64,000 bases of DNA from a virus (lineage: Duplodnaviria; Caudoviricetes). Location: IMG/VR virus record IMGVR_UViG_3300020577_006613, positions 1-64,000 of that record; one strand, given 5' to 3'. The translations under genes were made by a program, and so were the position numbers. The first letter of the stretch is position 1. The number at the start of each line of letters is the position of its first letter. Positions 3,958 to 63,170 of this stretch are shown here, piece by piece. The notes under the pieces were generated by a model. It saw only the letters and a list, made by a program, of their open reading frames with translations. It did no database searches and had not been told where the DNA came from.

Positions 3958-5187
3958 ATGAAGACCACAGCAGTTATTGGCGCTAATTTCGGCGATGAAG
4001 GCAAAGGTCTTATGACCGACTATTTCAGCGCCAAAGATTCGCTTGTGGTTAGATACAACGGCGGCGCTCAGGCAGGACATACCGTTGTTACTCCTGACGG
4101 TAAGCGCCACGTTTTTGGACACTTCGGTAGCGGCTCCTTTGTTGGGGCCGCTACTTTTCTTGGACCTGAGTTTTTGGTCAATCCTTTGCTTTGGAAGAAA
4201 GAGCTTAATACTCTTCGGTCTATGGGTATTGAACCCAAGATGGGCTTTAGTCACCAATGTCGCATGACGCTTCCTTATGACATGCTCATTAACGAAGCAG
4301 TTGAAAGAGCAAGAGGAAACGGCAGACACGGATCTTGCGGTCTTGGTATCAATGAAACGGTTACTCGATGCCTTTCTGGAAGAGAGGCCTACAGCTATCC
4401 TTGGATTGTTAATTCGCTAACACGGAAAGAGACAAAAGAGAGGATCATCTCTATTCGAGATGGGTATTGCCGTAAGAGGATTAAAGACCTTGGGCTTTCT
4501 CCTGATCCCAAATTCTTTGACCTTTTCAACTCGGATAGTCTTCTTGAAAACTTCCTTACAGTTCTTGATGAATTTACGAATCAAACTACCTACATTCATC
4601 ATGGTAACGCTTTGGAGTTTTTTGGAGTCGAGAGCGTTGTTTTCGAGGGAGCGCAAGGTCTTTTGCTTGATGAAGATCATGAGTTCTTCCCTCATGTTAC
4701 CCGTAGCAAAACTGGACTCAAGAACATTCTTGAACTCTGTAAAGACTGGCAGATTGAAGAACTTGATGTTGTTTACGCAACAAGAGCGTACATGACTCGT
4801 CATGGCGTTGGTCCTTTCCCGAGCGAAGACAACACGCTTCGCTATGAAGATAAGACCAATGTTCACAATGAGTTTCAGGGAAGTCTGCGTTTTGGAAGGC
4901 TTGATATCGACTTGCTTTCTGCAACAATCAAGGAAGACTTGACAGTTGCTCATGGCTTCAATGTTAATGTAAATCCTGCTATAGCCATAACTTGCGTAGA
5001 TCAGGTGCCTGATATTTTGACTGCTGATTTCGGAGGCAGAACAATCAAAATTGACAAAGGCGCTCTTGTTGAGACTGTTGCAGACGCCTGCGGTATCCGT
5101 AAGGCCTATTTTAGCGAAGGACCAACCAGAGAACACGTTTCTCGGTATTTCCTGAGAGAATGGGTTTCTGCTCCAAGTCGGGGCTAG
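3958..5187 (+). CDS. purA: Adenylosuccinate synthetase family protein (divergent)
   Basis: GANFGDEGKG, RYNGGAQAGHT and FEGAQG motifs. Confidence 0.85.
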   Translation: MKTTAVIGANFGDEGKGLMTDYFSAKDSLVVRYNGGAQAGHTVVTPDGKRHVFGHFGSGSFVGAATFLGPEFLVNPLLWKKELNTLRSMGIEPKMGFSHQCRMTLPYDMLINEAVERARGNGRHGSCGLGINETVTRCLSGREAYSYPWIVNSLTRKETKERIISIRDGYCRKRIKDLGLSPDPKFFDLFNSDSLLENFLTVLDEFTNQTTYIHHGNALEFFGVESVVFEGAQGLLLDEDHEFFPHVTRSKTGLKNILELCKDWQIEELDVVYATRAYMTRHGVGPFPSEDNTLRYEDKTNVHNEFQGSLRFGRLDIDLLSATIKEDLTVAHGFNVNVNPAIAITCVDQVPDILTADFGGRTIKIDKGALVETVADACGIRKAYFSEGPTREHVSRYFLREWVSAPSRG

Positions 5188-5193
5188 ACTTTC
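5182..5193 (+). promoter_or_regulatory. GGCTAGACTTTC conserved motif, copy 1
   Basis: Exact 12-mer found eight times, always at plus-strand gene boundaries. Confidence 0.7.
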
Positions 5194-5211
5194 TAGAAAG
5201 AAGCATAAAGC

Positions 5212-5490
5212 ATGGCAAAGCGAAAGAAGCAAGAAGCGATGACGGTTGCGGAACTCATTGAGTTGCTCAAGACCGTTGAGCAGGACAGAATCGTTGTCAT
5301 GTCGAAAGACTCCGAAGGCAACGGATATTCTCCGTTTTCGGGCATCTTTACAGCCGCCTATCGAGCCGACTCAACATGGAGCGGTGAGATTGGACTGGAA
5401 GAGTTGACTGACGAAGATCGAAAGCAAGGGTATTCCGACGAAGATGTGATTGACGGTGTTCCTTGCATCGTTTTGCAACCGACAAATTGA
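5212..5490 (+). CDS. Hypothetical phage protein
   Basis: MTVAELIELL..D.EGN.Y pattern common in small phage proteins. Confidence 0.65.
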   Translation: MAKRKKQEAMTVAELIELLKTVEQDRIVVMSKDSEGNGYSPFSGIFTAAYRADSTWSGEIGLEELTDEDRKQGYSDEDVIDGVPCIVLQPTN

Positions 5491-5496
5491 AAATAC

Positions 5497-5570
5497 GCCT
5501 TTGTAGTTCAACGGTAGAACCGGGGTCTCTAAAACTCTGAGCGTTGCAGGTTCGAATCCTGTCAAAGGCG
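5497..5570 (+). tRNA. Amber suppressor tRNA (anticodon CUA), copy 1
   Basis: Acceptor GCCTTTG/CAAAGGC, D arm, anticodon arm GGGGT-CTCTAAA-ACTCT (CTA at 5529-5531), T arm GCAGG-TTCGAAT-CCTGT, discriminator G. Confidence 0.9.
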
Positions 5571-5573
5571 CTT

Positions 5574-5647
5574 GCTCTCGTAGCTCAACTGGTTAGAGCC
5601 GGTGTTTCTAAAACTCCAGGTTGCGGGTTCGAATCCCGCCGAGGGCA
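5574..5647 (+). tRNA. Amber suppressor tRNA (anticodon CUA), copy 2
   Basis: Acceptor GCTCTCG/CGAGGGC, anticodon arm GGTGT-TTCTAAA-ACTCC (CTA at 5608-5610), T arm GCGGG-TTCGAAT-CCCGC, discriminator A. Confidence 0.9.
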
Positions 5648-5852
5648 TTCATGGCAACCAAAACTCCATACGAGTTTCCTCAAGTCTTTGATACGCTGTT
5701 TGATCTCAAGTCTGCGCCGGAAGCAATTCGCAAGCTTGAACAAATGAGGCAGAAGTCAAAAGAGTTGAAGAAGGATTATGCCAAACTTCATCGTTTGTTG
5801 AGAGAGCATGGCTACAAGCCGAAGCTTCCTCACGAAATCTGAAAGGTCATAT

Positions 5853-6221
5853 ATGGAAGTTACTGCTGAACAAGCCCTTGCAGCCGCAAAAACCAAGAAG
5901 TGGGTTTTTATCTGCTCTCCCTACACCAAGCCAGATCCGGCTGTAAACATCAACATTTCAGTGAAGATGTTCAACAGGTTGATGGATGATAACAAGTGCG
6001 TTCCTGTCAACATGCTTTGGACGCATTTCTATCACTGCATTATGCCTCGCAGCTATGAAAATTGGCTGGCGTATTGCATGTCTTTCCTGCCTCTTTGTCA
6101 CGCTGTTCTTCGTTTGCCTGGCGAAAGTTCTGGCGTAGATCGTGAAGTCCAAATCGCCAAAGACCTTGGAATCCCGGTCTTTGAATCAGTTGAAGAGCTT
6201 TACAGGTTTCTTGAATCATGA
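5853..6221 (+). CDS. DUF4406/DUF1937-like nucleoside deoxyribosyltransferase-fold protein
   Basis: FICSPYT ... ESSGVDREVQIAKDLGIPV. Confidence 0.65.
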   Translation: MEVTAEQALAAAKTKKWVFICSPYTKPDPAVNINISVKMFNRLMDDNKCVPVNMLWTHFYHCIMPRSYENWLAYCMSFLPLCHAVLRLPGESSGVDREVQIAKDLGIPVFESVEELYRFLES

Positions 6222-6658
6222 AGTTCGATCTCAAAAGACCATGCGCTGCTTGTCCTTTTAGGACCAACGCCCTTCCTACCTGGCTTGGTAGCTATACTCC
6301 GCAAGGGGTTGTAGACTCCATCAGGAATGATGAGCCGTTTTTCTGTCATCATCATGTTGAAGAAACGATTGGTTATGACGATCCTGATTGGCAGGAAAAG
6401 GCGCAAGAAGGCGCTCAGCATTGTGCTGGCGCTCTTATCTTCGCAAGGAAGATGTGCAAGCTAAGTCGAGATCCTGAGATCGCTCAAGCTCAACGAGCTA
6501 TTGATACAAACCAGGAGATTCTTTTCCCTCCTGACAAATTTGTGGCCTACCACTCCGTTACAATAAGCGCCGTTGCCAAAGCTATCAAGGAAAAGAAGCT
6601 CAATGGAAAAGCCACAAAACCCAAAGCCACAAAACGAAAGCCCTCAGCCAAAAACTGA
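6218..6658 (+). CDS. Cys/His-rich protein (DUF6283-like)
   Basis: PCAACPFR, FFCH, CAGA motifs. Confidence 0.55.
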   Translation: MKFDLKRPCAACPFRTNALPTWLGSYTPQGVVDSIRNDEPFFCHHHVEETIGYDDPDWQEKAQEGAQHCAGALIFARKMCKLSRDPEIAQAQRAIDTNQEILFPPDKFVAYHSVTISAVAKAIKEKKLNGKATKPKATKRKPSAKN

Positions 6659-6923
6659 GAAGAAACCCAATTTCATCTTTCGCAAACATAGACCCAAGAA
6701 AGGCTCCCAAGATGCTTCAGGTAGAGACAATTACCGTAACTAAAGGTCATGAGACTCTTTCTGAAGACGATAAGGGTAACGGTCGCATTAAGTGCAATTG
6801 CGGCAACACCTATGACTTTTCTCTTATGAAGAGTCAAAACATGGTGGAATGCGATGGGTTCATCTTTCCCTGCTGTCCTTCTTGCAAAGAGACTCCTCAT
6901 TCTGAAACTCGAAGGATTGACTG

Positions 6924-7826
6924 GTGAATCAATATCAGCTATACAAGGTTGAAGACAAAAGAATCAGAGAGCAATGGTTCAAGGACCATGTTCCTGAGTT
7001 TTTTGTATATGGCGATGGCTCTTTCTTGAAGATCAAGTGGCGCAAACCAGGCACCTGGAATTATGCGGTTGTTTACTTGATTGACAAGAGGATGGGTCAT
7101 CTCTGTGTGTTTGGAGACCTTGGAGAAGCTGTTTACCAGTGGCATCCGCCAATTGACATCGACTTCCTTGGTGGCCTTGATTTGTCTTACTTTGACAGTA
7201 AGTGTCAGGCAAGTTCTTGCGGAGAACGAGGCAAAACCTGGAACGAAGAAGTTGCTGTAACATACATCAAAGAGTACATTGAGTCTCATACGCTTGGAGA
7301 AGATCATGGGGACTCATTGTTTGAATCACTGTATAGTGATGGCTACGTTGAAAACATGCTGAAGACTGCTGCTCCAGATTTGGCTCTTCTGTACACAGAA
7401 GAAGGTTACAAGTCTTGGAGAGAGATGTCGAGAGATGAAAAAGACAGGTTCACTGTTGTTGCTAAAAGTTACTTGAAGAAGCTTGTTGAGAACAACGAGT
7501 GGCAGAAGTTTTCCAAGCATGATTACCGTCGAGAGCTTATCGAAAAACAGATCAAGTTTGAAGAACTTGGTCCTGAAGCAATAGAAGCATGTGAATCTGA
7601 GTTCTCATGGCATAGATGGCTAGGCGAAGAAGGTCACAACTTCTTTGGTGACGCCTACTTTGAGTATGGCGAAATTGGAAGAACCATATCTCTTCGAGTT
7701 CAGTCGCATCTTATTGGGCTTCAAATGATTTCTGCTGGATTGAAGTCTGGCAAGTTTTCAATGGAAGTAACACAATGCCCTTGGAAAAGGTTCAAAAAAT
7801 GGCTCAGTCAGCGCAAGTTCTGGTAA
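6924..7826 (+). CDS. Hypothetical phage protein
   Basis: 300-aa ORF in array. Confidence 0.65.
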   Translation: MNQYQLYKVEDKRIREQWFKDHVPEFFVYGDGSFLKIKWRKPGTWNYAVVYLIDKRMGHLCVFGDLGEAVYQWHPPIDIDFLGGLDLSYFDSKCQASSCGERGKTWNEEVAVTYIKEYIESHTLGEDHGDSLFESLYSDGYVENMLKTAAPDLALLYTEEGYKSWREMSRDEKDRFTVVAKSYLKKLVENNEWQKFSKHDYRRELIEKQIKFEELGPEAIEACESEFSWHRWLGEEGHNFFGDAYFEYGEIGRTISLRVQSHLIGLQMISAGLKSGKFSMEVTQCPWKRFKKWLSQRKFW

Positions 7827-8311
7827 AGGGCATTCCTGTTGAATTTGTTGATGGTAAGAACTTTGTTCGAGCCACAAAGACAAAAGCAATCAAGGCGAAG
7901 CCTATCAATGTTTTGCTTGCTGACTCATCGGTACTCAGCAAGTTTCTGCTTGACACTATCGAAGGCCATGCTTCATTGAAAGCGGGTTCCATGATTTGTA
8001 TTGGAGCCGCCGGTGATGCTTGGATGCAGTCAAAAGAAAAATTGATTGCAAAGTACAATATCACTGACATTGATGGCGAGGGATGGATAACATGCGTCCC
8101 GAAACCAGATAACGAGGTTTTTGCTGTTGAGATTGACCATGATTTTTGCGTATACGCACAGTATGGCGAAGACCATGTGGTTGATGGAGCAAAGCGGCAC
8201 GTTCTTTTTGGCAAGGCGGGGGACTGGATGCTTCAAAGCACAACGGACAGGAATGATGTCTGGATTGTTGCTCAGAAGCTTTTCAACGCCACCTACGAGG
8301 TTTTGCCCTAA
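7775..8311 (+). CDS. PGDYG-like protein
   Basis: Duplicated G..GD.W/AGDW..F..TYE pattern. Confidence 0.5.
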   Translation: MPLEKVQKMAQSAQVLVKGIPVEFVDGKNFVRATKTKAIKAKPINVLLADSSVLSKFLLDTIEGHASLKAGSMICIGAAGDAWMQSKEKLIAKYNITDIDGEGWITCVPKPDNEVFAVEIDHDFCVYAQYGEDHVVDGAKRHVLFGKAGDWMLQSTTDRNDVWIVAQKLFNATYEVLP

Positions 8312-8334
8312 TTTTCACAGAAAGTGAAATCCAG

Positions 8335-8346
8335 GGCTAGACTTTC
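8335..8346 (+). promoter_or_regulatory. GGCTAGACTTTC motif, copy 2
   Basis: Exact match, about 24 nt before the structured RNA. Confidence 0.7.
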
Positions 8347-8369
8347 GGAGAAAAGCCGATAGAGTAAGA

Positions 8370-8532
8370 GTAGAGTTGTTCGAAAAGTCTGGTGGATGTC
8401 TCGTATAAACCCTTTTGAAGGCGGGGCAAGCCGCCGTCTGTAAGAGGGGTAGGGTGTAAAAGTACGCCACCTATGATCAGGGTGGAAGTTGGCTCCCAAC
8501 CAGCGTTTACCAGACCTTTCGAACAACTCTGC
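8370..8532 (+). ncRNA. Unassigned structured RNA upstream of the amber-containing Pth2 gene
   Basis: About 30-bp closing helix (8370-8399/8503-8532, several G-U pairs) enclosing several hairpins. Confidence 0.7.
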
Positions 8533-8553
8533 ATAACAAAAAGGAGTAAGAAA

Positions 8554-9093
8554 ATGACGTAGGTTGAATCGCAAGCTGTTTACCTGTATGTTCTCGTTCG
8601 ACAAGACCTCTCGCCTTCGCAACAAGCCGTTCAGGCATGTCATGCGGCGATTGAGGCAACCAGAAGGTTCACCCCTGGCTAGGACCAGGAACATCCTCAT
8701 CTGGTTCTGCTCTCTGTCACAAATGAAGATGAGCTTCTGAAGGCCTATGAGCGCCTTCAGCACTATGGCATTCGGGTCGCCAAGTTCGAAGAACCCGACC
8801 GTAACAATGAAATAACAGCTATCGCTACGGAACCGCTTCCTGCGGATTCCAAGCTGCGTCGTAAGTTCAGTTGCTATAAGCTCCTGAATCTTGATACCGC
8901 TGCGCCTGTTATTGAAGCGGAAGAAACCTCACAAACTGAAGAACCTGCTGAACTCCCTGAATGCTCTCTTTGCGAGGGCAGAGGCGAGGTTGATGACCCT
9001 ACGCCCTGCGGTCGCTGTCGCGTTAGGGGTTGTCGTTCCATGACCTGTCCTAAGTGTAAGGGCGTTCGAACAGAAGGAGTTACAAATGAATAA
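8554..9093 (+). CDS. Peptidyl-tRNA hydrolase (Pth2 family) with C-terminal Cys-rich tail; in-frame TAG at codons 3 and 43
   Basis: AAGGAG RBS then ATG ACG TAG GTT...; reads YVLVRQDLSPSQQAVQACHAA..LVLLSV..EDELL..FEEPD..TAIATEP; TAG at 8560 and 8680; TAA 9091 overlaps the next ATG. Confidence 0.82.
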
Positions 9094-9709
9094 GCAACCT
9101 GGTTGGGGCAATACCCCTTGGATGACTCTTTGGGATGCCATGAAGACTTGTCCTCAAACTAAGAATCAGTCTGTTTGGGAACATGGAGAATCGGTTAGAG
9201 ATCATCTTTCTAAGCTTATTGCTTTTCTTCGCGGAAATGAAACAACGCTCGAAGGGTGGAGGCTTCCTAACTGGATCTTTGTTTATCGTTCGGAACTTTT
9301 GAGTTCTCTTGCTCCTGATGGAGTTCTTGAGACTTACGCTATGTATCATGACTGCGGCAAGCCTTTTTGCAGAACTGTTGATGCGGAAGGTAAGCAGCAT
9401 TTTCCTGACCATGCGAAAGTTTCTCGCGCAAAGTATCTTGAGATTGCTGAGGGGACTGAGAACTGCTATGAGATTGCAGATCTCATTGCGCATGATATGG
9501 ATATCCATACCATGTCTTCTGAGGATATTGAGGCTTTTTGTAAGTTGAAGAATGCTACCAGCTTGTTGCTGACGGGCATTGCGGAAATTCATAGCAATGC
9601 TGCCATGTTTGGCGGTATCGAATCTGTGAGTTTCAAGATTAAGTGGAAGCAGATTGATAAGCGTGGCAAGTCTATCTGCGAGAAGTTGTTTGGTAAAAAA
9701 GGAGTCTAA
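9086..9709 (+). CDS. HD-domain phosphohydrolase
   Basis: VWEHG, MYHDCGKP, HFPDHA, IAHDM. Confidence 0.8.
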   Translation: MNKQPGWGNTPWMTLWDAMKTCPQTKNQSVWEHGESVRDHLSKLIAFLRGNETTLEGWRLPNWIFVYRSELLSSLAPDGVLETYAMYHDCGKPFCRTVDAEGKQHFPDHAKVSRAKYLEIAEGTENCYEIADLIAHDMDIHTMSSEDIEAFCKLKNATSLLLTGIAEIHSNAAMFGGIESVSFKIKWKQIDKRGKSICEKLFGKKGV

Positions 9710-9710
9710 G

Positions 9711-10139
9711 ATGGCAACTGTTCAAAATGTTAGTAAGAGTCGTTTTGGTTTTCACGCATGCGATCATGAAACCTATCTGAAGCTGAAGAAGCTTAAGAAG
9801 CTGTACTACAAGGCGCTGCATCGCAATGCAGAATGGAACCGCTGGAATAACAAGCTTCCTAAGAACCGTCTTCTTCGCAAGTGGTTCCGTAACGAAAAGG
9901 GACAGCGTACTCACTTCGAAGTTGTTGGGCCAATGCCTGAACCCAAGGTCTATCCTGTTTTCGGTAATCGTCACTACGTTCCTCAAGGTGAACATGCCCT
10001 TAATGACATGGGCGTTCTTGAGGCCTACAATATCGCTCGCACTCCCTATGCAACTCTTGAAGAAGTGAAGAATATCAAGCTTACCGTTGATCAGATCAAC
10101 AATATGCTTGCTCATCTCGAAAAAGTCGATAATACCTAA
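9711..10139 (+). CDS. Hypothetical protein
   Basis: AAGGAG RBS. Confidence 0.6.
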   Translation: MATVQNVSKSRFGFHACDHETYLKLKKLKKLYYKALHRNAEWNRWNNKLPKNRLLRKWFRNEKGQRTHFEVVGPMPEPKVYPVFGNRHYVPQGEHALNDMGVLEAYNIARTPYATLEEVKNIKLTVDQINNMLAHLEKVDNT

Positions 10140-10608: not shown

Positions 10609-11796
10609 ATGATGAAGATTACCAGTTTGATGGTTGCCGGGGCATTGACGCTTCTGGCGGGTACGGCAATGGCACAGAACGACGCTTCAAGCGCAACGAC
10701 TGCTGCAATGCTGGCTGACGCACAGACGCGCACCAGTTTTTCTGATGGCCAGGGTTCTGGTCATGATGCGAACGGCTTCTTCCTTTCTGGAAACGGCGCT
10801 CGTCTCAACATTGGCGGTGACATTCAGTTCCGCTACACCTACAACACCAATCGTTCCGGTGACAACAATGACGAGATGGGCTTCAATGTTCCTCTCGCTC
10901 GTCTGCGTTTTAGCGGAAACCTGAACGAGAACATTGACTACATGCTCGAAGGCGAGTTTGATAGTGATGGTGGCGATGCTTCCTTGGCGGATGCTTACGC
11001 TGGCTGGACTCTTTCTCCCGGCGCTCGTGTTCAGTTTGGTCAGTATCGTCTCGGGTTCATGCGTGAAGTGAATGTTGCTGAACGTTTCCAGCTTGCCGCT
11101 GATCGCAGCATCGTTTCCTCTGTCTTTGGACAGGGCCGTTCTCAGGGCGTTCAGTTCTCCTATGACGCTGGTGATTTCCGTTTCATTGGCTCCGTTTCTG
11201 ACGGCTTCAATACGGCAAACACTGACTTCACCGATCCTGCCGAGTCCGATCTTGCGTTGACTGGTCGCGTCGAGTGGCTTGCCTTTGGCAATCGTTCAAG
11301 CACGACCGATTTCACTTCGCAGCGTTCTGAGAATGGTTCGCTGCTTCTCGGTGGTGCATTCCACTACCAGGAAGGCGACACTCAGAACACTATGTACAGC
11401 TACACGGGCGACGTTAGCTGGGAAAACAATGGTTGGAACGCTATGCTCGCCGGTGTTGGTCGCACCATCGAGGATGCTGGTTCTGACTTCGACGACTTCG
11501 GTGTTGTTGTTCAGGGCGGCTATCGCGTAACTGAGAACATCGAGCCGTTTGCTCGTTATGACGCTGTGTTTGCTGACAGCAATCGTGGTCTTGATAATGA
11601 CAACTTCAACTTCATCACCGCTGGTGTCAACTACTACCTTTACGGCCATGCCGCAAAGTTCACTGTTGATGCTGTTTACTCGCTTGACGACACGACTGGA
11701 CTTGGATCGCTTGGTAACTTCAGTAACACTGGAGTTCTTGGCTCTGGCGACGAAGGCGAACTCGCCCTCCGCGCTCAGTTCCAGCTTCTGTTCTAA
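10609..11796 (+). CDS. Outer-membrane porin (OprO/OprP-like, Planctomycetota type)
   Basis: Signal peptide, ADA..RTS..GHD..GFFL N-terminus, amphipathic beta strands, C-terminal RAQFQLLF. Confidence 0.8.
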   Translation: MMKITSLMVAGALTLLAGTAMAQNDASSATTAAMLADAQTRTSFSDGQGSGHDANGFFLSGNGARLNIGGDIQFRYTYNTNRSGDNNDEMGFNVPLARLRFSGNLNENIDYMLEGEFDSDGGDASLADAYAGWTLSPGARVQFGQYRLGFMREVNVAERFQLAADRSIVSSVFGQGRSQGVQFSYDAGDFRFIGSVSDGFNTANTDFTDPAESDLALTGRVEWLAFGNRSSTTDFTSQRSENGSLLLGGAFHYQEGDTQNTMYSYTGDVSWENNGWNAMLAGVGRTIEDAGSDFDDFGVVVQGGYRVTENIEPFARYDAVFADSNRGLDNDNFNFITAGVNYYLYGHAAKFTVDAVYSLDDTTGLGSLGNFSNTGVLGSGDEGELALRAQFQLLF

Positions 11797-11892: not shown

Positions 11893-12498
11893 ATGGTTCC
11901 TAAAGGCTTCCAATTTCAATGTACTTCTTGCAAGAAGTATTACGAGACAATCTCGCAAGCTTCTGATTGCAAGCTAACCTGTCAATCTGACAAGCGCAAC
12001 GTTATCGACGTTTACAAGTATTGGAAAACAGAGGCGATCAAGGCAGAACTTGACAAGAAGCGTCACAACTTCTCCGTTCTCATTACTAACCACTTCCACG
12101 ATTTCAATATTGGAAGCGTCATAAGAAACAGCAATGCCTTTCTTGGCAAGAACGTATACATCCTTGGCAGAAGAAAGTTTGATGCCAGAGGAGCAGTAGG
12201 TACTAATCACTACGAAAACTTGGTCTTCATTGACGATATTAGAGAGATAGCGGAAACCAACATACTTGTTGGTTTTGATGACTTGCCGCAAGCAAAGCCG
12301 CTGGATGAGTTTCAGTGGCCGCAGAAAAAGCACGTTGTTATGTGTTTTGGGCAAGAGACTGTTGGGTTGACTTCCGATGTTGTGAGTGCATGCCAAGATA
12401 TTGTCTACATAAGACAGTTTGGCAGCGTTAGAAGCCTCAATGTTGGCTGCGCATCAGCAATAGCCATGTTCTCCTATTGTCAGCAAATATCAAGGTAA
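11893..12498 (+). CDS. SpoU/TrmH family RNA methyltransferase
   Basis: FNIGSVIRN, FGQETVGL, SLNVGCA SPOUT motifs. Confidence 0.85.
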   Translation: MVPKGFQFQCTSCKKYYETISQASDCKLTCQSDKRNVIDVYKYWKTEAIKAELDKKRHNFSVLITNHFHDFNIGSVIRNSNAFLGKNVYILGRRKFDARGAVGTNHYENLVFIDDIREIAETNILVGFDDLPQAKPLDEFQWPQKKHVVMCFGQETVGLTSDVVSACQDIVYIRQFGSVRSLNVGCASAIAMFSYCQQISR

Positions 12499-33589: not shown

Positions 33590-33724
33590 TTGTACAAGAG
33601 TGATACCATGAACAGCAGCAACCTCCATGAATCTGAACAGAGGAACTTCCGAGAACGTCGCTAAGCGACTTCGGAAGCTGCATTGGCTCGCCATATAAGG
33701 CTTGAGCCTACCGACTCAAAACTT

Positions 33725-33796
33725 GGGCCTATCGTCTAGCGGCTAGGACACGACCCTTTCAAGGTTGTAACCGGGGTTCGATTCCCCGTAGGCTCA
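33725..33796 (+). tRNA. tRNA-Glu (UUC)
   Basis: Canonical cloverleaf, anticodon loop CTTTCAA. Confidence 0.92.
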
Positions 33797-33816
33797 TTCG
33801 TTTTCAGGTATATTTC

Positions 33817-33888
33817 GGCCTTGTAGCATTATGGGTAGATCGGGATCCTCTCAAGATCCAGGACCGAGTTCGAGTCTCGGCAAGGTCA
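33817..33888 (+). tRNA. tRNA-Glu (CUC), atypical D arm
   Basis: GGCCTTG/CAAGGTC acceptor, GGATC-CTCTCAA-GATCC, CCGAG-TTCGAGT-CTCGG. Confidence 0.8.
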
Positions 33889-37067: not shown

Positions 37068-37141
37068 GCTCCTGTGGTATAACTGGATGTGCCTTCGCCT
37101 TCTAAGCGAAAGTTATGAGAGTTCGAGTCTCTCCGGGAGTG
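37068..37141 (+). tRNA. tRNA-Arg (UCU)
   Basis: TTCGC-CTTCTAA-GCGAA anticodon arm, GAGAG-TTCGAGT-CTCTC T arm. Confidence 0.88.
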
Positions 37142-37791
37142 CTTAAGTGGATATTGCTTACCCTATAACCTTGGTTGCTATTATCCTTGTCTTCATGCGA
37201 AGAGATAGGTATGATGGTATTTGCAGAAAACACGGATGTAGTCTGAAGATTGAACCTGGATCTGAATACAGTTACCAGTATTGCGAAATATGTGAAGAAG
37301 AGACTCGTAAAGAACGCCTATAGTTTGGGCGTTCTTTTCATTTGGAGAAAGAGTAAATGAAAAGGCCCGATCTTTCAAGCAGAGCAATTCAGGACAATGT
37401 TGGCGAGAACTATTTGAAGGTCAAAAAGAAGATGGAAGAAGCTGGTCTTTCAGTTTCTTGCGCAGAAGAAAAAGGAAATACCACTACAACCAACTCCAGG
37501 GGTAGTGATGTAGAGATTCGCTATGATAGGTACAATGGCGAGATCATAAGGATTTGGAGATCAGGATAACTGGTATGGCAAGTTTCATGGTTTACGAAAA
37601 GATCACGAAGAAACAACTCAAGCAAGTCACAAAAGACACAATAAAGGGCATCAAAAAGTGGTTTACCGACAACCCTAAGCGTAAGATATGTAACGCTCAG
37701 TGGGTCTATGGCGAAATGTTCAAGGTTCGCCGTAACTATATTGAGGAAGATGTCAACGAAATGTCAGGTAAAACAGATACAAAGTGATTAG

Positions 37792-40505: not shown

Positions 40506-40579
40506 GCCCGCTTAGCTCAGTTGGATAGAGCAGATGATTTCTAATCATCAGGTCAGGGGTTCGAATCCCTTAGCGGGCG
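40506..40579 (+). tRNA. tRNA-Arg (UCU), nested inside the disrupted tRNA
   Basis: Canonical cloverleaf, GATGA-TTTCTAA-TCATC. Confidence 0.92.
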
Positions 40580-40639
40580 CTTTGGATAGAAAAAGGATTT
40601 CTAAGCGTTTCTTTGTATTCATCTCTATGGAGGTGGATT

Positions 40640-60249: not shown

Positions 60250-61281
60250 ATGAGCAATCCAGCAGGTCCGATCAACAGAGTCTTGGAGTCCTTTAGAAGA
60301 CTTGTTCCAGAAGACAAATCTGCTGTTATCGCATGCTCAGGCGGGGCCGATTCAATGGCCCTGCTTTTTTGCGCGCAAAAGACTGGACGAACCCTTATTG
60401 CTGCTCATGTTCTTCACGACATGAGGCCTTACGATGAAGCATCAAAAGACAGGGATCTGGTTCAGTCATACTGCGAAAGTAACGCCATTCATTTCGTTGA
60501 CAAGGTTGCAAAGCTAAGGTTTGGCGAAAAAATCCCAACAGAAGAAGCATACGGATACGAAAGACAAAGACTCTTATGGGGAGTGGCTGATGAGTACAAC
60601 GGATATGTTGTAACCGCTCATCACGCAGATGACCAGCTTGAAACAATGCTCATGAAGCTCTGTAGAGGTTCAGGTCTTCGTGGACTGTCGGGCATTTCAG
60701 AGACACACAACCACAACGACAACATTACTGTTCGACCAATGCTCTCAATCTCCAAGGATGATGTATACGAGATTTGCAGACAGAACAATGTTCCGTTCAA
60801 TGAAGATCAAACCAACAAAGATACCAAGTACACTCGAAACGCTATTCGACACAATGTGATTCCTGCTTTGAAGGCTCTGTTTCCTCATTGTTCAGAAAAG
60901 GCAAACGACGCTGCTGCTATCTTTTCACAGGCGCAGGAACTTGCAAACGAAAGCCTCTACGATCTCAAGTTGCACCAGAAGACTAACATTGTTTATGATC
61001 CCGACTGGGGAGGTGGCGGTACTTGCGTAAGCCTTCCTATTGAGGCTTTGCAACTTGCCAACAACATTACTATCTATGAGTGGCTTAGAAGTTCTGTTGT
61101 CTATCTTGCAGGAGGTTTTGAATACGTTGCTCATGACAGCGTAAACAAGGAAATGGTTGACAAAGTAATCTTGGCTATTAGAAACAGGTCTAAGAGAACC
61201 TTTGATTGGCCTCTCAATATCAAAGTTAGCGTTTCCAAGACTGAAGTAACAGTGATGATTGTTAAGAAGATTCTGCCATGA
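60250..61281 (+). CDS. tilS: tRNA(Ile)-lysidine synthetase
   Basis: SGGADS, TAHHADDQLET, RG.G..GL, RPML, D.TN....RN..R. Confidence 0.9.
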   Translation: MSNPAGPINRVLESFRRLVPEDKSAVIACSGGADSMALLFCAQKTGRTLIAAHVLHDMRPYDEASKDRDLVQSYCESNAIHFVDKVAKLRFGEKIPTEEAYGYERQRLLWGVADEYNGYVVTAHHADDQLETMLMKLCRGSGLRGLSGISETHNHNDNITVRPMLSISKDDVYEICRQNNVPFNEDQTNKDTKYTRNAIRHNVIPALKALFPHCSEKANDAAAIFSQAQELANESLYDLKLHQKTNIVYDPDWGGGGTCVSLPIEALQLANNITIYEWLRSSVVYLAGGFEYVAHDSVNKEMVDKVILAIRNRSKRTFDWPLNIKVSVSKTEVTVMIVKKILP

Positions 61282-62123
61282 AGAAAGCTCCTGTTGTCAA
61301 GTGGATTATTGAAGAAGGGACGTTTTCTGAGGATATAGCTTCAATTGTTGAGGCTGTGCGGTCTCAGAACATGATAGCTGAAACTGTAAGATATAGACCC
61401 TTTGAAAGCGGAGAATACAATCAGTTTGGTGACAACGACTGCGTTATTGTGCTGGGTTCGATCAACCTAGTCAGGCAAATCCAAAGACAAAAGCCTTGGA
61501 TTCCTGGAAGCTTTGCCAATTTCCCCAACTTCGACTGCATGACCTATTACGCCTACTTTGGCAAGTTTCTCTGGAACAATCCTTACTACATAATGCCTCT
61601 GGCAGAAGTAAAGAGAAAGTTCAACGACTTACAGTTGAAGCACGGTAGACTCTTCATAAGACCTTGTACTGGCACGAAAGCTTTTTCAGGTCAGATTCTT
61701 GATTATGAAGATCTTCTTCGCCATGAAGACCAATATGGAAAGCCAGAGCTTCCTGTTGTTATCGCTCCAGGAATGGAGATAAGAAGCGAGTTTAGGCTTT
61801 TCTGCTCCGGTAATAAAGTCATTGCCGGTTCAATGTACTACAATCAAGAAGGAATGTACGAAACCGCTCCTATTGATATGCTTGCCGGGGAGAAATATTC
61901 TACACTGGCAGTAAACTATGCCCATGATATTCTCAGTCAAGTTTCTTGGCGACCTGATAAGATGTTCGCTATGGACATCGGAATTGGCCCCAGAAACGAG
62001 GTAGGCCTTATCGAGATTAACAGCTTTAGCTGTTCTGGCTGGTACAGGTCTCCTCCATCTCTTATTGTTGCCGAAGCCGCTCGACTGGCAAGAGAAGAGT
62101 GGGAGGAAATTAACAATCTCTAG
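61278..62123 (+). CDS. ATP-grasp protein (R2K/DUF4343-like)
   Basis: FIRP...K.FSG, EFR.F, MDIG..IEINSFSCSG.Y. Confidence 0.75.
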   Translation: MKKAPVVKWIIEEGTFSEDIASIVEAVRSQNMIAETVRYRPFESGEYNQFGDNDCVIVLGSINLVRQIQRQKPWIPGSFANFPNFDCMTYYAYFGKFLWNNPYYIMPLAEVKRKFNDLQLKHGRLFIRPCTGTKAFSGQILDYEDLLRHEDQYGKPELPVVIAPGMEIRSEFRLFCSGNKVIAGSMYYNQEGMYETAPIDMLAGEKYSTLAVNYAHDILSQVSWRPDKMFAMDIGIGPRNEVGLIEINSFSCSGWYRSPPSLIVAEAARLAREEWEEINNL

Positions 62124-62216: not shown

Positions 62217-63170
62217 ATGAAACTGATACTCTTTGTCTTTTCTGTTCTTCTTGTTCTTTTCTCTAAACCAGCGTTTTCTAGCGTAACAATAGTTCCGCTG
62301 AAAGCAAATGACAAAGCAATCGACAACTTTCCGTTTGTTGGCATGATGATTAATGTCAGCAACAATTCTTGCGGATCTGGAACCGTCATTGGCGACGGTT
62401 CTTTTGTCTTAACGGCCAGGCATGTTGTAACTCATAATGGCTCGGATATGGGAATGTTGCTAGATGGCTCTAACTTTGTCTTTGTAATAGGGGATAAGAA
62501 GTACAAAGTCTTGAATGTTTATGGACATCCTTCAGCAGACATAGCAATAGTCAAGATTGACGGAATACATCAACAAGCAGCAAAGCTTTCGTTTTCAACT
62601 CGTTTTATAGACAAAGAGTTCTACGGAACAGGTTATGGTAAGGGGTCGTCTTCAACTACATCAAAGTGCATAGATTGGAACTTGGAATACGGAACTATGC
62701 GAGTCTATAAGAACAAGATGGATACCGAGTTTATTAGCCTCAAGATTTCTGATTCAAACATAACAATGACGAGAGTATTCGTTTTCGACCTTAGCGATCC
62801 CAATACGCTAGGGAAAAGTGATGGAGCTATTGAGGGCGAAGGAATGCACGGCCCCGGCGACTCTGGTGGCGGTATCTTTGTTATTGAGGATGGAGAGCTT
62901 CATCTTTTCGGCGTTATATCAGCATTAACTCAAGAAGCTCCATATATGGGATTTGTGCATGATGTTTCTGCATGTAAAGAATGGATTGAGTCTATTGTGA
63001 AAAATGCGGTTGCCGTTCCTAAGCTCCAAGCCCTAGGCGAACAGAATAGCATTATCGGTGAAGCCCTAAAAGCGCCTTCACCAAAAGTCGATACACCTAT
63101 CACTCCTTTCTTGAGTAACGAAAGGCGAAGACGTAGCAGGATACCCCCATTCGATGAAATGCCCTTTTAA
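62217..63170 (+). CDS. Secreted trypsin-like serine protease
   Basis: Signal peptide, LTARHV, ADIA, GDSGG catalytic triad. Confidence 0.85.
   Translation: MKLILFVFSVLLVLFSKPAFSSVTIVPLKANDKAIDNFPFVGMMINVSNNSCGSGTVIGDGSFVLTARHVVTHNGSDMGMLLDGSNFVFVIGDKKYKVLNVYGHPSADIAIVKIDGIHQQAAKLSFSTRFIDKEFYGTGYGKGSSSTTSKCIDWNLEYGTMRVYKNKMDTEFISLKISDSNITMTRVFVFDLSDPNTLGKSDGAIEGEGMHGPGDSGGGIFVIEDGELHLFGVISALTQEAPYMGFVHDVSACKEWIESIVKNAVAVPKLQALGEQNSIIGEALKAPSPKVDTPITPFLSNERRRRSRIPPFDEMPF

What the first reader, a model, noticed from the sequence alone, without database searches (positions are those of the whole stretch)
8541..9093. Amber-gated peptidyl-tRNA hydrolase: a hidden Pth2 gene with two in-frame TAG codons
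Seen: a strong RBS (AAGGAG) and ATG 8554 open a 179-codon frame that the ORF caller missed because codons 3 (8560) and 43 (8680) are TAG. The frame encodes a Pth2-family signature (YVLVRQDL, QAVQACHAA, LVLLSV, F.EPD, TAIA) plus a Cys-rich tail, and its TAA overlaps the next ATG. Both TAGs appear to lie at tolerant positions (N-terminus and a predicted loop), and there is no frameshift or other stop. TAG is a normal terminator for other genes here (e.g. 3027, 5187, 13856, 35106, 62123), so this is not genome-wide recoding. Inference: full-length enzyme is made only when UAG is read through twice, by the phage's own CUA tRNAs or when RF1 is limiting. That would form a switch coupling peptidyl-tRNA recycling to termination status. 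Without readthrough the mRNA is an AUG-ACG-UAG minigene, a class known (lambda bar minigenes) to produce peptidyl-tRNA drop-off, which is Pth's substrate.
Basis: partly seen in the sequence, partly recalled or inferred. Interest (0 to 1): 0.93.

Follow-up and report, generated by a model that had tools for sequence, protein, structure and literature searches.

The report
Suppressor-tRNA-gated phage Pth2-like gene
A giant phage that otherwise uses the normal genetic code keeps two UAG stop codons inside a small tRNA-hydrolase-like gene and carries its own UAG-reading tRNAs nearby, a pairing repeated in over a hundred phage and metagenome contigs, so the enzyme is probably made only when those tRNAs override the stop.

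Summary
In detail: AAGGAG, ATG 8554, TAG at codons 3 and 43, TAA 9091 overlapping the next ATG, and a Pth2 fold that spans the second TAG. It is neither an error nor a pseudogene.
- Thirteen independent contigs (down to ~62% identity) keep TAG at exactly these two codons. dN/dS is 0.05-0.2 on both sides, and neighbouring synonymous sites are saturated.
- Two constrained CUA tRNAs lie 2.9 kb upstream.
- The genome uses the standard code. A 98%-complete 494-kb relative also uses it (77 of 578 genes end in TAG), has one isolated CUA tRNA, and shows no other convincing TAG-interrupted gene.

The pattern extends across the family. In 131 distinct loci from two collections the gene is linked to suppressor tRNAs. 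A short leader (typically ATG-NNN-stop) carries a stop that always matches the tRNA anticodon: 53 TAG/CUA, 4 TGA/UCA, 2 TAA/UUA, no mismatch. An HD-like partner gene overlaps this gene's stop here, is fused to it elsewhere, and is itself gated in several lineages.

Nothing is experimental. The enzyme's substrate and the purpose of the switch are inferred. The canonical Pth2 lysine is replaced by glutamine. I found no published description. Earlier agents of this scan noted the same cassette on other DNA many times.

The parts
5497..5570 (+). tRNA(CUA) no. 1, a divergent tandem paralog with G73 discriminator
   Evidence: ARAGORN anticodon cta. Rfam RF00005 55 bits. 76% identical to tRNA 2. Fits the clade cloverleaf with compensatory changes.
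5574..5647 (+). tRNA(CUA) no. 2, ortholog of the single CUA tRNA of the relatives, with A73 discriminator
   Evidence: ARAGORN. Rfam 62 bits. 83-86% identical to the CUA tRNAs 2.0-3.1 kb upstream of the gene in L002-L005, L019 and L020. 10 of 21 pairs show compensatory double changes and the anticodon loop is invariant.
8541..8546 (+). Shine-Dalgarno AAGGAG, 7 nt before the ATG
   Evidence: Read directly. An AGGAG-type site at similar spacing is kept in the relatives.
8554..8562 (+). Leader ATG-ACG-TAG: start codon, one sense codon, first gating stop
   Evidence: TAG at codon 3 in all 13 clade loci. Homologous leaders M-x(1-8)-stop occur across the family.
8680..8682 (+). Second gating TAG (codon 43), in the loop between helix 21-39 and strand 49-55
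   Evidence: The column is a one-residue insertion relative to more distant homologs. A TAG at the same position (motif +20) recurs in other subclades.
8554..9093 (+). Whole Pth2-like CDS, 179 codons including the two TAGs, ending in TAA
8578..8883 (+). Pth2-fold core (residues 9-110)
   Evidence: AlphaFold pLDDT about 95. The top Foldseek hits (ranks 1-11) are archaeal or human Pth2 structures, TM about 0.7 on the target. Profile against PDB: 24bt 2.5e-7, 2zv3 2e-6.
8962..9057 (+). Cys-rich tail (Cys 137, 140, 152, 155, 160, 165, 168; CxxCxGxG-like), probably a zinc ribbon
   Evidence: Weak DnaJ_CXXCXGXG hit, E 0.46. Shared only with P0001/L006; a different Cys-rich tail occurs in P0014. Low model confidence.
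9086..9709 (+). HD-like partner gene; its start overlaps the Pth2-like stop
   Evidence: phrog_14850 8.7e-56, weak Pfam HD. 48% identical to the N-terminal half of the HD-like+Pth2 fusion P0029. Adjacent or fused in 22 loci. Model pLDDT 93; best fold and sequence matches are tRNA nucleotidyltransferase-family 'tRNA processing enzyme' 3wfo-3wfs.

Best explanation
This is a functional gene for a Pth2-fold enzyme. Its translation is gated by the phage's own amber-suppressor tRNAs.

Mechanism: ribosomes start at ATG 8554, reach UAG at codon 3 and again at codon 43, and continue only if a CUA tRNA (5497-5647) outcompetes RF1. Output should therefore rise roughly with the square of suppression efficiency. 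The HD-like gene that overlaps the stop codon is probably co-translated with it.

The gene belongs to a conserved phage cassette of suppressor tRNA + Pth2-like + HD-like genes. In standard-code giant phages the cassette's own genes are the only detectable clients of the suppressor tRNA.

Most likely purpose (inferred): the two enzymes act on tRNA 3' ends. The Pth2-like protein would hydrolyse peptidyl or aminoacyl esters; the HD-like protein would be a phosphohydrolase or tRNA-binding module. Gating would make them in proportion to suppressor activity, to clear the peptidyl-tRNA and stalled-ribosome by-products that stop-codon readthrough creates.

Shown by sequence comparison: the gene is intact, the TAGs are conserved, the tRNAs are linked and anticodon-matched, the genome uses the standard code, the fold is Pth2, and the HD partner is linked. 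Inferred: actual readthrough, the inserted amino acid, the enzyme's activity and the purpose. The confidence given is for suppressor-gated expression of a functional gene; the stated purpose alone I would put at about 0.35.
For: - TAG sits at exactly codons 3 and 43 in 13 loci (9 distinct coding sequences) down to ~62% identity, and never at another Gln position.
- dN/dS is 0.05-0.2 both between the TAGs and after the second one, with dS saturated.
- 38 of 44 amino-acid-invariant degenerate columns vary synonymously, including both Gln columns, while the two TAG columns are fixed.
- No ATG, GTG or TTG occurs for 119 codons after TAG 8680, so reinitiation is not available.
- The CUA tRNAs keep the cloverleaf with compensatory changes.
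- Viral contigs: 47 of 65 distinct loci have a suppressor tRNA within 6 kb (median ~560 nt). CUA is the commonest anticodon (44 of 201 tRNAs). 30 loci have only suppressor tRNAs.
- Stop type matches anticodon in 25 of 25 viral pairs (my tally) and 34 of 34 metagenome pairs: in all 53 TAG/CUA, 4 TGA/UCA, 2 TAA/UUA.
- Gating stops are followed by a purine in 35 of 37 cases, against T in 23 of 51 terminator TAGs.
- The complete 494-kb relative G001 uses the standard code (93.1% coverage under code 11, 93.6% with TAG read through; 77 of 578 genes end in TAG). It has a single CUA tRNA apart from its tRNA arrays and no other convincing client.
- Cultured phages show the same pattern: Acinetobacter ME3 has MT-TAG with an annotated CTA tRNA ~415 nt upstream; Serratia BF has MTH-TAG and the gene is unannotated.
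- Pth2 fold.
- The HD-like partner is fused, adjacent, and itself TAG-gated in L039, L042, L051, L053, L077, L135 and Serratia BF; XacN1 has an in-frame MK-TAG just upstream of its fusion ORF.
Against: - There is no expression, proteomic or biochemical data. Whether the tRNAs are made and charged, and with which amino acid, is unknown; body comparison is ambiguous between Trp, Arg and Lys.
- 13-14% of the phage's own genes end in TAG, so a strong suppressor should be costly. Backup stops after TAG terminators are only mildly enriched in G001 (39% against 23%) and not in this record.
- The lysine of the canonical Pth2 GK motif aligns with Gln23, so canonical activity is not assured.
- About 25 viral loci have the tRNA but no gating stop that I could find, and a few gated loci have no suppressor tRNA within the flank.
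- Only 20% of this phage's genome is available.
- Loci are not phylogenetically independent, and the two collections partly overlap.
Confidence: 0.75

Rival explanations
1. Negative-feedback governor. Gating is the same, but the Pth2-like/HD-like pair acts on the suppressor tRNA itself, deacylating or disabling it. More readthrough then makes more antagonist, and suppression is held at a set point that spares the phage's own TAG-terminated genes. The logic is analogous to prfB autoregulation.
For: 13-14% of phage genes end in TAG, so unrestrained suppression should be harmful. Both enzymes look directed at tRNA 3' ends. An early in-frame stop in a translation-related gene is the classic design of an autoregulatory sensor (my own knowledge of prfB).
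Against: The suppressor tRNA bodies are very diverse across the family (~60% identity between distant loci), which argues against a body-specific enzyme. It also leaves unexplained why the phage keeps a suppressor at all. Some family members (for example L048, L062, L073, L076) have neither a gating stop nor a suppressor tRNA in the flanks searched, so the enzyme may have a function independent of suppressors.
Confidence: 0.2
2. Ordinary partial recoding. The phage reads TAG as an amino acid in a late-gene block that lies in the unseen 80% of its genome, and this gene is merely one of many recoded genes.
For: Phage suppressor tRNAs with in-frame stops in late genes are well documented (Borges et al., bioRxiv 10.1101/2021.08.26.457843). 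Only 100 kb of an estimated ~500 kb is available. The relative G001 encodes a release-factor-like protein.
Against: The 98%-complete 494-kb relative shows no recoded block. Coverage is 93.1% under code 11 against 93.6% with TAG read through, TAG ends 13% of genes, and no other convincing interrupted gene was found. None was found in this record's 100 kb either. The stop falls in the same gene family and the same leader position in dozens of lineages and with all three stop codons, which random accumulation would not produce.
Confidence: 0.07
3. Expression independent of the suppressor. The ATG-ACG-TAG leader is a tiny upstream ORF and the enzyme is made by reinitiation, a non-canonical start or near-cognate readthrough. 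The neighbouring tRNAs serve another purpose.
For: In some family members an ATG or GTG follows the leader stop closely (L032, L052, Myrna gp84, XacN1 ORF364).
Against: In this clade there is no ATG, GTG or TTG between the two TAGs, nor for 119 codons after the second. The second TAG lies inside the folded domain. The perfect stop/anticodon match is unexplained by this reading.
Confidence: 0.04
4. Pseudogene or sequencing/assembly error.
For: Two in-frame stops are the usual hallmark of a dead gene. Many GenBank records leave the homolog unannotated.
Against: Identical TAG positions occur in 13 independent assemblies. dN/dS is 0.05-0.2 downstream of the stops with saturated dS. There are no frameshifts, and the core fold is intact and confidently modelled.
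Confidence: 0.01

Closest known systems
Stop-codon recoding in phages by phage-encoded suppressor tRNAs (TAG read as Gln, 'code 15'; Lak, crAss-like and other gut phages; Borges et al., bioRxiv 10.1101/2021.08.26.457843; Peters et al. 2022, PMC9523058)
   Same: A phage-encoded CUA tRNA is needed to translate phage genes that contain in-frame TAG in a standard-code host. Those authors also proposed it as a regulatory delay.
   Different: In those phages tens to hundreds of genes (structural and lysis genes) are recoded and TAG is rare as a terminator. Here the genome uses the standard code and TAG ends 13-14% of genes. The only detectable clients are the cassette's own one or two genes. The stop sits at a fixed leader position, and all three stop codons are used, each with its matching tRNA.
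prfB (RF2) autoregulation through an early in-frame UGA
   Same: An early in-frame stop codon in a translation-related gene makes synthesis depend on how efficiently that stop is read as a stop. (My own knowledge.)
   Different: prfB escapes by a +1 frameshift and senses its own product. Here escape would be by a dedicated suppressor tRNA, there is no frameshift site, and the product is not a release factor.
Lambda bar minigenes (AUG-AUA-stop) and Pth-limited toxicity
   Same: Shine-Dalgarno site + AUG + one sense codon + stop is exactly the form of this leader, and it is the commonest leader form in the family. Pth is the enzyme that relieves minigene toxicity in E. coli. (My own knowledge.)
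   Different: Here the minigene is in frame with, and part of, the hydrolase gene itself. No evidence of drop-off or toxicity was obtained.
PTH2 of jumbo phages (Iyer et al. 2021, PMC7824862), and archaeal/eukaryotic Pth2
   Same: Same fold and Pfam family. [quoted passage not shown]
   Different: That paper mentions neither suppressor tRNAs nor stop codons. The phage family has Gln where canonical Pth2 has the GK-motif lysine, and Glu where it has the Asp.
Orphan suppressor tRNAs of standard-code jumbo phages (for example XacN1; Yoshikawa et al. 2018, PMC5852040)
   Same: CUA tRNAs in a phage that uses the standard code. The authors could not identify target genes.
   Different: They tested only read-through extensions of annotated genes. 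The XacN1 HD-like+Pth2 fusion ORF364 is preceded in frame by ATG-AAA-TAG, a candidate client they could not have seen.

Membership tests
Pth2 (Pfam PF01981, peptidyl-tRNA hydrolase 2) | Sequence match above the curated threshold | tested here: met
   33 bits against a cut-off of 23, residues 11-98. Family profile against PDB Pth2 entries: E 2.5e-7 to 7e-4. NCBIfam equivalog models are far below their cut-offs (20 bits against 82-126).
Pth2 (Pfam PF01981, peptidyl-tRNA hydrolase 2) | Pth2 alpha/beta fold | tested here: met
   AlphaFold core pLDDT about 95. Foldseek ranks 1-11 are all Pth2 structures (3erj, 2zv3, 1wn2, 1q7s, 1rlk, 1xty), TM about 0.7 on the target.
Pth2 (Pfam PF01981, peptidyl-tRNA hydrolase 2) | Catalytic residues. 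From my memory of the S. solfataricus work these are the Lys of the GK motif and an Asp, plus a conserved His. | tested here: inconclusive
   In the HMMER alignments the GK-motif Lys aligns with near-invariant Gln23/Gln24 and the Asp with invariant Glu80. His30 is conserved. The lysine is not met; the acidic residue and the His are kept.
Pth2 (Pfam PF01981, peptidyl-tRNA hydrolase 2) | Hydrolysis of peptidyl-tRNA | not testable with these tools
   Needs a biochemical assay.
Stop-codon-recoded phage (code 15) | Phage-encoded suppressor tRNA with a CUA anticodon | tested here: met
   Two in the window and one in each relative.
Stop-codon-recoded phage (code 15) | Many genes interrupted by TAG; coding density and gene length recover only under the alternative code | tested here: not met
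   Code 11 tiles 92% of this record and 93.1% of the complete relative G001, against 93.6% with TAG read through. Only the Pth2-like gene is convincingly interrupted.
Stop-codon-recoded phage (code 15) | TAG depleted as a terminator | tested here: not met
   17 of 121 genes here and 77 of 578 in G001 end in TAG.
Pyrrolysine decoding (ARAGORN labels the tRNAs 'tRNA-Pyl') | Atypical tRNA(Pyl) architecture and pylS/pylBCD genes | tested here: not met
   Both tRNAs are ordinary cloverleaves scoring 55-62 bits on the general tRNA model, and are closest to Trp, Arg and Lys bodies. The label only reflects the CUA anticodon. The pyl genes were not searched for.
Lambda bar-type minigene | Shine-Dalgarno site, AUG, one sense codon, stop | tested here: met
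   AAGGAG-N7-ATG-ACG-TAG. ATG-NNN-stop occurs in 18 of 28 gated viral loci.
Lambda bar-type minigene | Peptidyl-tRNA drop-off and toxicity when Pth is limiting | not testable with these tools
   Needs an in vivo assay.

The most novel reading that the evidence does not exclude
The suppressor tRNA + Pth2-like + HD-like cassette is a self-contained translational sensor. A two-codon minigene-like leader, placed where release-factor action is weakest, measures the balance between release factor and the phage's suppressor tRNA. That balance sets the level of two enzymes that act on tRNA 3' ends. This would make the cassette's own genes the long-sought natural client of the 'orphan' suppressor tRNAs of standard-code jumbo phages, and a natural orthogonal stop-codon switch that has evolved for UAG, UGA and UAA alike.
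Probability: 0.35. Interest if true: 0.85.

Novelty: new variant of a known kind. Interest (0 to 1): 0.8.

Why it matters
Suppressor tRNAs in phages that use the standard code have had no known target; the XacN1 authors say so explicitly. A conserved, anticodon-matched in-frame stop in one small enzyme family gives them a concrete client. It also suggests a new kind of translational control: single-gene gating by a dedicated suppressor tRNA, not a change of code.

There are three further consequences.
- It explains why this gene is missed or truncated in GenBank records of cultured jumbo phages.
- It points to tRNA 3'-end chemistry (Pth2-like plus HD-like) as something phages need when stop codons are being overridden.
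- It offers natural, compact stop-codon switches for all three stops that could be tested directly in cultured phages.

Tried and rejected
- blastn of the locus against the cultured-phage collection gave no match.
Conservation across assemblies stands in for the read check.
- Rfam found nothing but the two tRNAs between 5200 and 9200, with no theta or HDV-like ribozyme. It found nothing in the insertion of G001's copy.
- Promoter and terminator scans of 5100-9800 were at chance level.
- The amino-acid identity of the tRNAs could not be assigned. The nearest bodies are Trp, Arg and Lys at 69-76%, and the TAG columns are clade-specific insertions with no sense-codon counterpart.
- Two genome-wide screens for other TAG clients gave only antisense shadows and ordinary gene boundaries. 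These screens are insensitive to short N-terminal leaders on other genes.
- Window 61278-62123 (TAG) followed in frame by 62217-63170 looks like an ordinary gene boundary.
- The intein reading of G001's in-frame insertion was rejected in favour of a mobile element with an antisense HNH endonuclease.
- Sequencing error, pseudogene and pyrrolysine readings were rejected (see rivals and membership tests).
- Complex prediction was not used: no binding claim is made.

Full report
**The observation.** The window reads AAGGAG (8541-8546), ATG 8554, ACG, TAG (8560), then an open frame with a second TAG at 8680 and no other stop until TAA 9091-9093. That TAA overlaps ATG 9086 of the next gene. Read through, the 179-residue product matches Pfam PTH2 above threshold (33 bits against 23) over residues 11-98, so the match runs across the second TAG. 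ARAGORN and Rfam find two tandem tRNAs with anticodon CUA at 5497-5570 and 5574-5647. ARAGORN's 'Pyl' label only reflects the anticodon; both are ordinary cloverleaves. The window is the first 64 kb of a 100-kb IMG/VR record that CheckV rates about 20% complete. Genes lie mostly on the + strand. The standard code tiles 92% of the record, and 17 of 121 + strand genes end in TAG.

**Not an error and not a pseudogene.**
- Four IMG/VR relatives (86-89% protein identity) keep both TAGs while neighbouring synonymous sites differ.
- The ten nearest database proteins show Q at both positions, but their contigs translate only 'with TAG=Q'.
- At the DNA level, codons 3 and 43 are TAG in all 13 loci, down to about 62% identity. 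No other glutamine position is ever TAG, and the true stops are TAA or TGA.
- Nei-Gojobori dN/dS is 0.05-0.2 both between the TAGs and downstream of the second. dS is saturated among the distant members.
- 38 of 44 amino-acid-invariant degenerate columns vary synonymously, including both invariant Gln columns (CAA/CAG). The two TAG columns are fixed.
- No ATG, GTG or TTG occurs between the TAGs or for 119 codons after the second. Only readthrough can give the protein.

**Standard code, and a single client.** Reading TAG through lengthens no other convincing gene in the window or in the rest of the record. A close relative, G001, lies on a 494,120-bp contig rated 98% complete. It shares 69-71% identity in this gene and the same local order of tRNA-CUA, then the gene, then Glu and Arg tRNAs. 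I fetched it whole.
- Code 11 covers 93.1% of it, and reading TAG through covers 93.6%.
- 77 of 578 genes end in TAG.
- It has 71 tRNAs but only one CUA tRNA. That tRNA sits apart from the main tRNA arrays, 2.7 kb upstream of the Pth2-like gene.
- Two screens for other interrupted genes returned only antisense shadows and ordinary boundaries.

This lineage is therefore not 'code 15'.

**A family-wide cassette.** A profile scan of IMG/VR gave 80 loci, 65 of them distinct.
- 47 of the 65 have a suppressor tRNA within 6 kb, at a median distance of about 560 nt.
- CUA is the commonest of all anticodons found (44 of 201 tRNAs; the next has 12). In 30 loci the only tRNAs present are suppressors.
- Anchoring every locus on the invariant QxxVQxxHA motif shows a short leader, M-x(1-8)-stop, 15-27 codons upstream. 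ATG-NNN-stop is the commonest form, in 18 of 28 gated loci.
- The stop matches the tRNA. TAG goes with CUA in 21 loci. TGA goes with UCA in L029, L032 and L043. TAA goes with UUA in L034.
- An independent scan of metagenome contigs gave 66 distinct loci, nearly all with the leader stop. It added 32 TAG/CUA pairs, one TGA/UCA pair (L187) and one TAA/UUA pair (L198).
- In all, 59 of 59 pairs match. Under random pairing that is about 1 in 7e8. I computed this by hand, and it is not corrected for shared ancestry or for overlap between the two collections.
- L204 carries TGA in the same MSGF-x-stop-V leader family that elsewhere carries TAG, so the stop has switched within one leader lineage.
- Gating stops are followed by a purine in 35 of 37 cases. 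Terminator TAGs of G001 are followed by T in 23 of 51. From my own knowledge, a 3' purine favours amber suppression in E. coli.
- The clade's CUA tRNAs keep the cloverleaf, with compensatory double changes in 10 of 21 pairs and an invariant anticodon loop.
- Window tRNA 2 is the ortholog of the relatives' single tRNA. Window tRNA 1 is a divergent tandem copy.

**Cultured phages.** Homologs occur in many isolated jumbo phages.
- Acinetobacter phage ME3 reads MT-TAG-IHENKK, with a tRNA annotated 'anticodon CTA' about 415 nt upstream.
- Serratia phage BF reads MTH-TAG, and the gene is unannotated.
- Mycobacteriophage Myrna gp84 is followed by a CUA tRNA.

**What the proteins are.** The core (residues 9-110) models at pLDDT about 95. 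Foldseek ranks 1-11 are all archaeal or human Pth2 structures, and the family profile finds Pth2 entries in the PDB. TAG 3 lies before the first strand. TAG 43 lies in the loop between helix 21-39 and strand 49-55, in a one-residue insertion specific to this clade. In the alignments the lysine of the canonical GK motif corresponds to near-invariant Gln23, and the canonical Asp to invariant Glu80. His30 is kept. So the fold and family are Pth2, but the chemistry may differ. The Cys-rich tail (CxxCxGxG-like) is shared only with one relative and models poorly.

The gene that overlaps the stop codon (9086-9709) is an HD-like protein (phrog_14850).
- It is 48% identical to the N-terminal half of natural HD-like+Pth2 fusions such as P0029 and XacN1 ORF364.
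- It lies next to the Pth2-like gene, or is fused to it, in 22 of the fetched loci.
- It carries its own TAG leader or internal TAG in L039, L042, L051, L053, L077, L135 and Serratia BF. XacN1 has an in-frame ATG-AAA-TAG immediately upstream of its fusion ORF.
- Its model (pLDDT 93) and its profile best match tRNA nucleotidyltransferase-family 'tRNA processing enzyme' structures 3wfo-3wfs. The matches are weak: E about 1e-3, with TM 0.55-0.60 on the query.

Both partners therefore point to tRNA 3' ends.

**Interpretation.** The best-supported reading is suppressor-gated synthesis. The enzyme, and probably its coupled HD-like partner, is made only when the phage's CUA tRNAs win against RF1, twice. 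I favour demand-coupled expression, in which enzymes that clear peptidyl-tRNA or repair tRNA ends are made in proportion to suppressor activity. My reasons are that the suppressor bodies are too diverse for a body-specific enzyme, and that some family members (for example L048, L062, L073, L076) show neither a gating stop nor a nearby suppressor tRNA in the flanks searched. A negative-feedback governor of suppression is a serious rival, because 13-14% of the phage's own genes end in TAG. Partial recoding in the unseen part of the genome, suppressor-independent expression and pseudogene status are unlikely, for the reasons given under the rivals. Nothing here is experimental.

**Literature and earlier notes.** No paper in the searched library combines PTH2, suppressor tRNA and bacteriophage.
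- Borges et al. describe genome-scale recoding and 'code change modules' of tRNA, aaRS and release factor, with no Pth.
- Iyer et al. note PTH2 in jumbo phages but mention neither suppressors nor stop codons.
- The XacN1 paper states that no targets of its CUA tRNAs could be found.

This scan's own notebook shows that other agents reached the same reading on other genomes many times. I used two of their leads, cultured carriers and Pth2-HD fusions, and tested both here. Those notes are not independent evidence.

Noticed in passing
L105:9515-10297 (= G001:C1:209515-210297); also L020 and G003: In the 494-kb relative the Pth2-like gene carries a ~790-nt insertion right after the invariant EPD motif. 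The insertion is stop-free in the gene's frame and holds an antisense 247-aa ORF with an HNH homing-endonuclease signature. No Rfam intron family matches. It is unclear whether it is spliced or splits the gene.
   Followed up: partly
L103:1681-2427 (= G001:C1:161681-162427): The relative encodes a class-I release-factor homolog (RF-1 domain 87 bits, GGQ present). It lacks domain 1, and by my reading has PPS where RF1 has its PxT codon-recognition motif. It follows a TGA and has no start codon for 151 codons, so it may be split, frameshifted or read through.
   Followed up: partly
window 3958-5187: The adenylosuccinate-synthetase homolog best matches the PHROG annotated as 2-amino(oxy)adenylosuccinate synthetase (PurZ-like, 1.5e-62). 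This hints that the phage may replace adenine with 2-aminoadenine. A nucleoside 2-deoxyribosyltransferase-like gene follows at 5808-6221.
   Followed up: no
window 10609-11796 and 11893-12498: A phage-encoded homolog of phosphate-selective porin O/P (49 bits) lies next to a SpoU-family RNA 2'-O-methyltransferase (68 bits).
   Followed up: no
L122 (Xanthomonas phage XacN1, AP018399.1 about 243730-243760): XacN1 ORF364 (an HD-like+Pth2 fusion) is preceded in frame by ATG-AAA-TAG-ACA-ATC-AAA just before its annotated ATG. It is a candidate client for the two CUA tRNAs whose targets the XacN1 authors could not find.
   Followed up: partly
L120 (Serratia phage BF) and the Erwinia pEa_SNUABM, Yersinia fHe-Yen9-04, Klebsiella K64-1 and Ralstonia RsoM2USA records: The Pth2-like homolog has no annotated feature under the match in these GenBank records. 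In BF this is because of the in-frame leader stop. BF's HD-like gene also has an internal TAG.
   Followed up: partly
L014, L017, L130, L131, L151, L164, L171, L204 and others: A recurrent leader peptide, M-x-G-F-x-stop-V (MSGFQ#V, MNEFQ#V, MSGFT#V, MSGFV$V), suggests that the leader sequence around the stop is itself conserved, perhaps as context for readthrough.
   Followed up: no
window 33724-33888, 37068-37142, 40506-40580: The only other tRNAs in the window are Glu(UUC), Glu(CUC) and two Arg(UCU). The same set lies at a similar distance downstream of the CUA tRNA in G001, which shows conserved synteny with ~0.5-Mb phages.
   Followed up: partly
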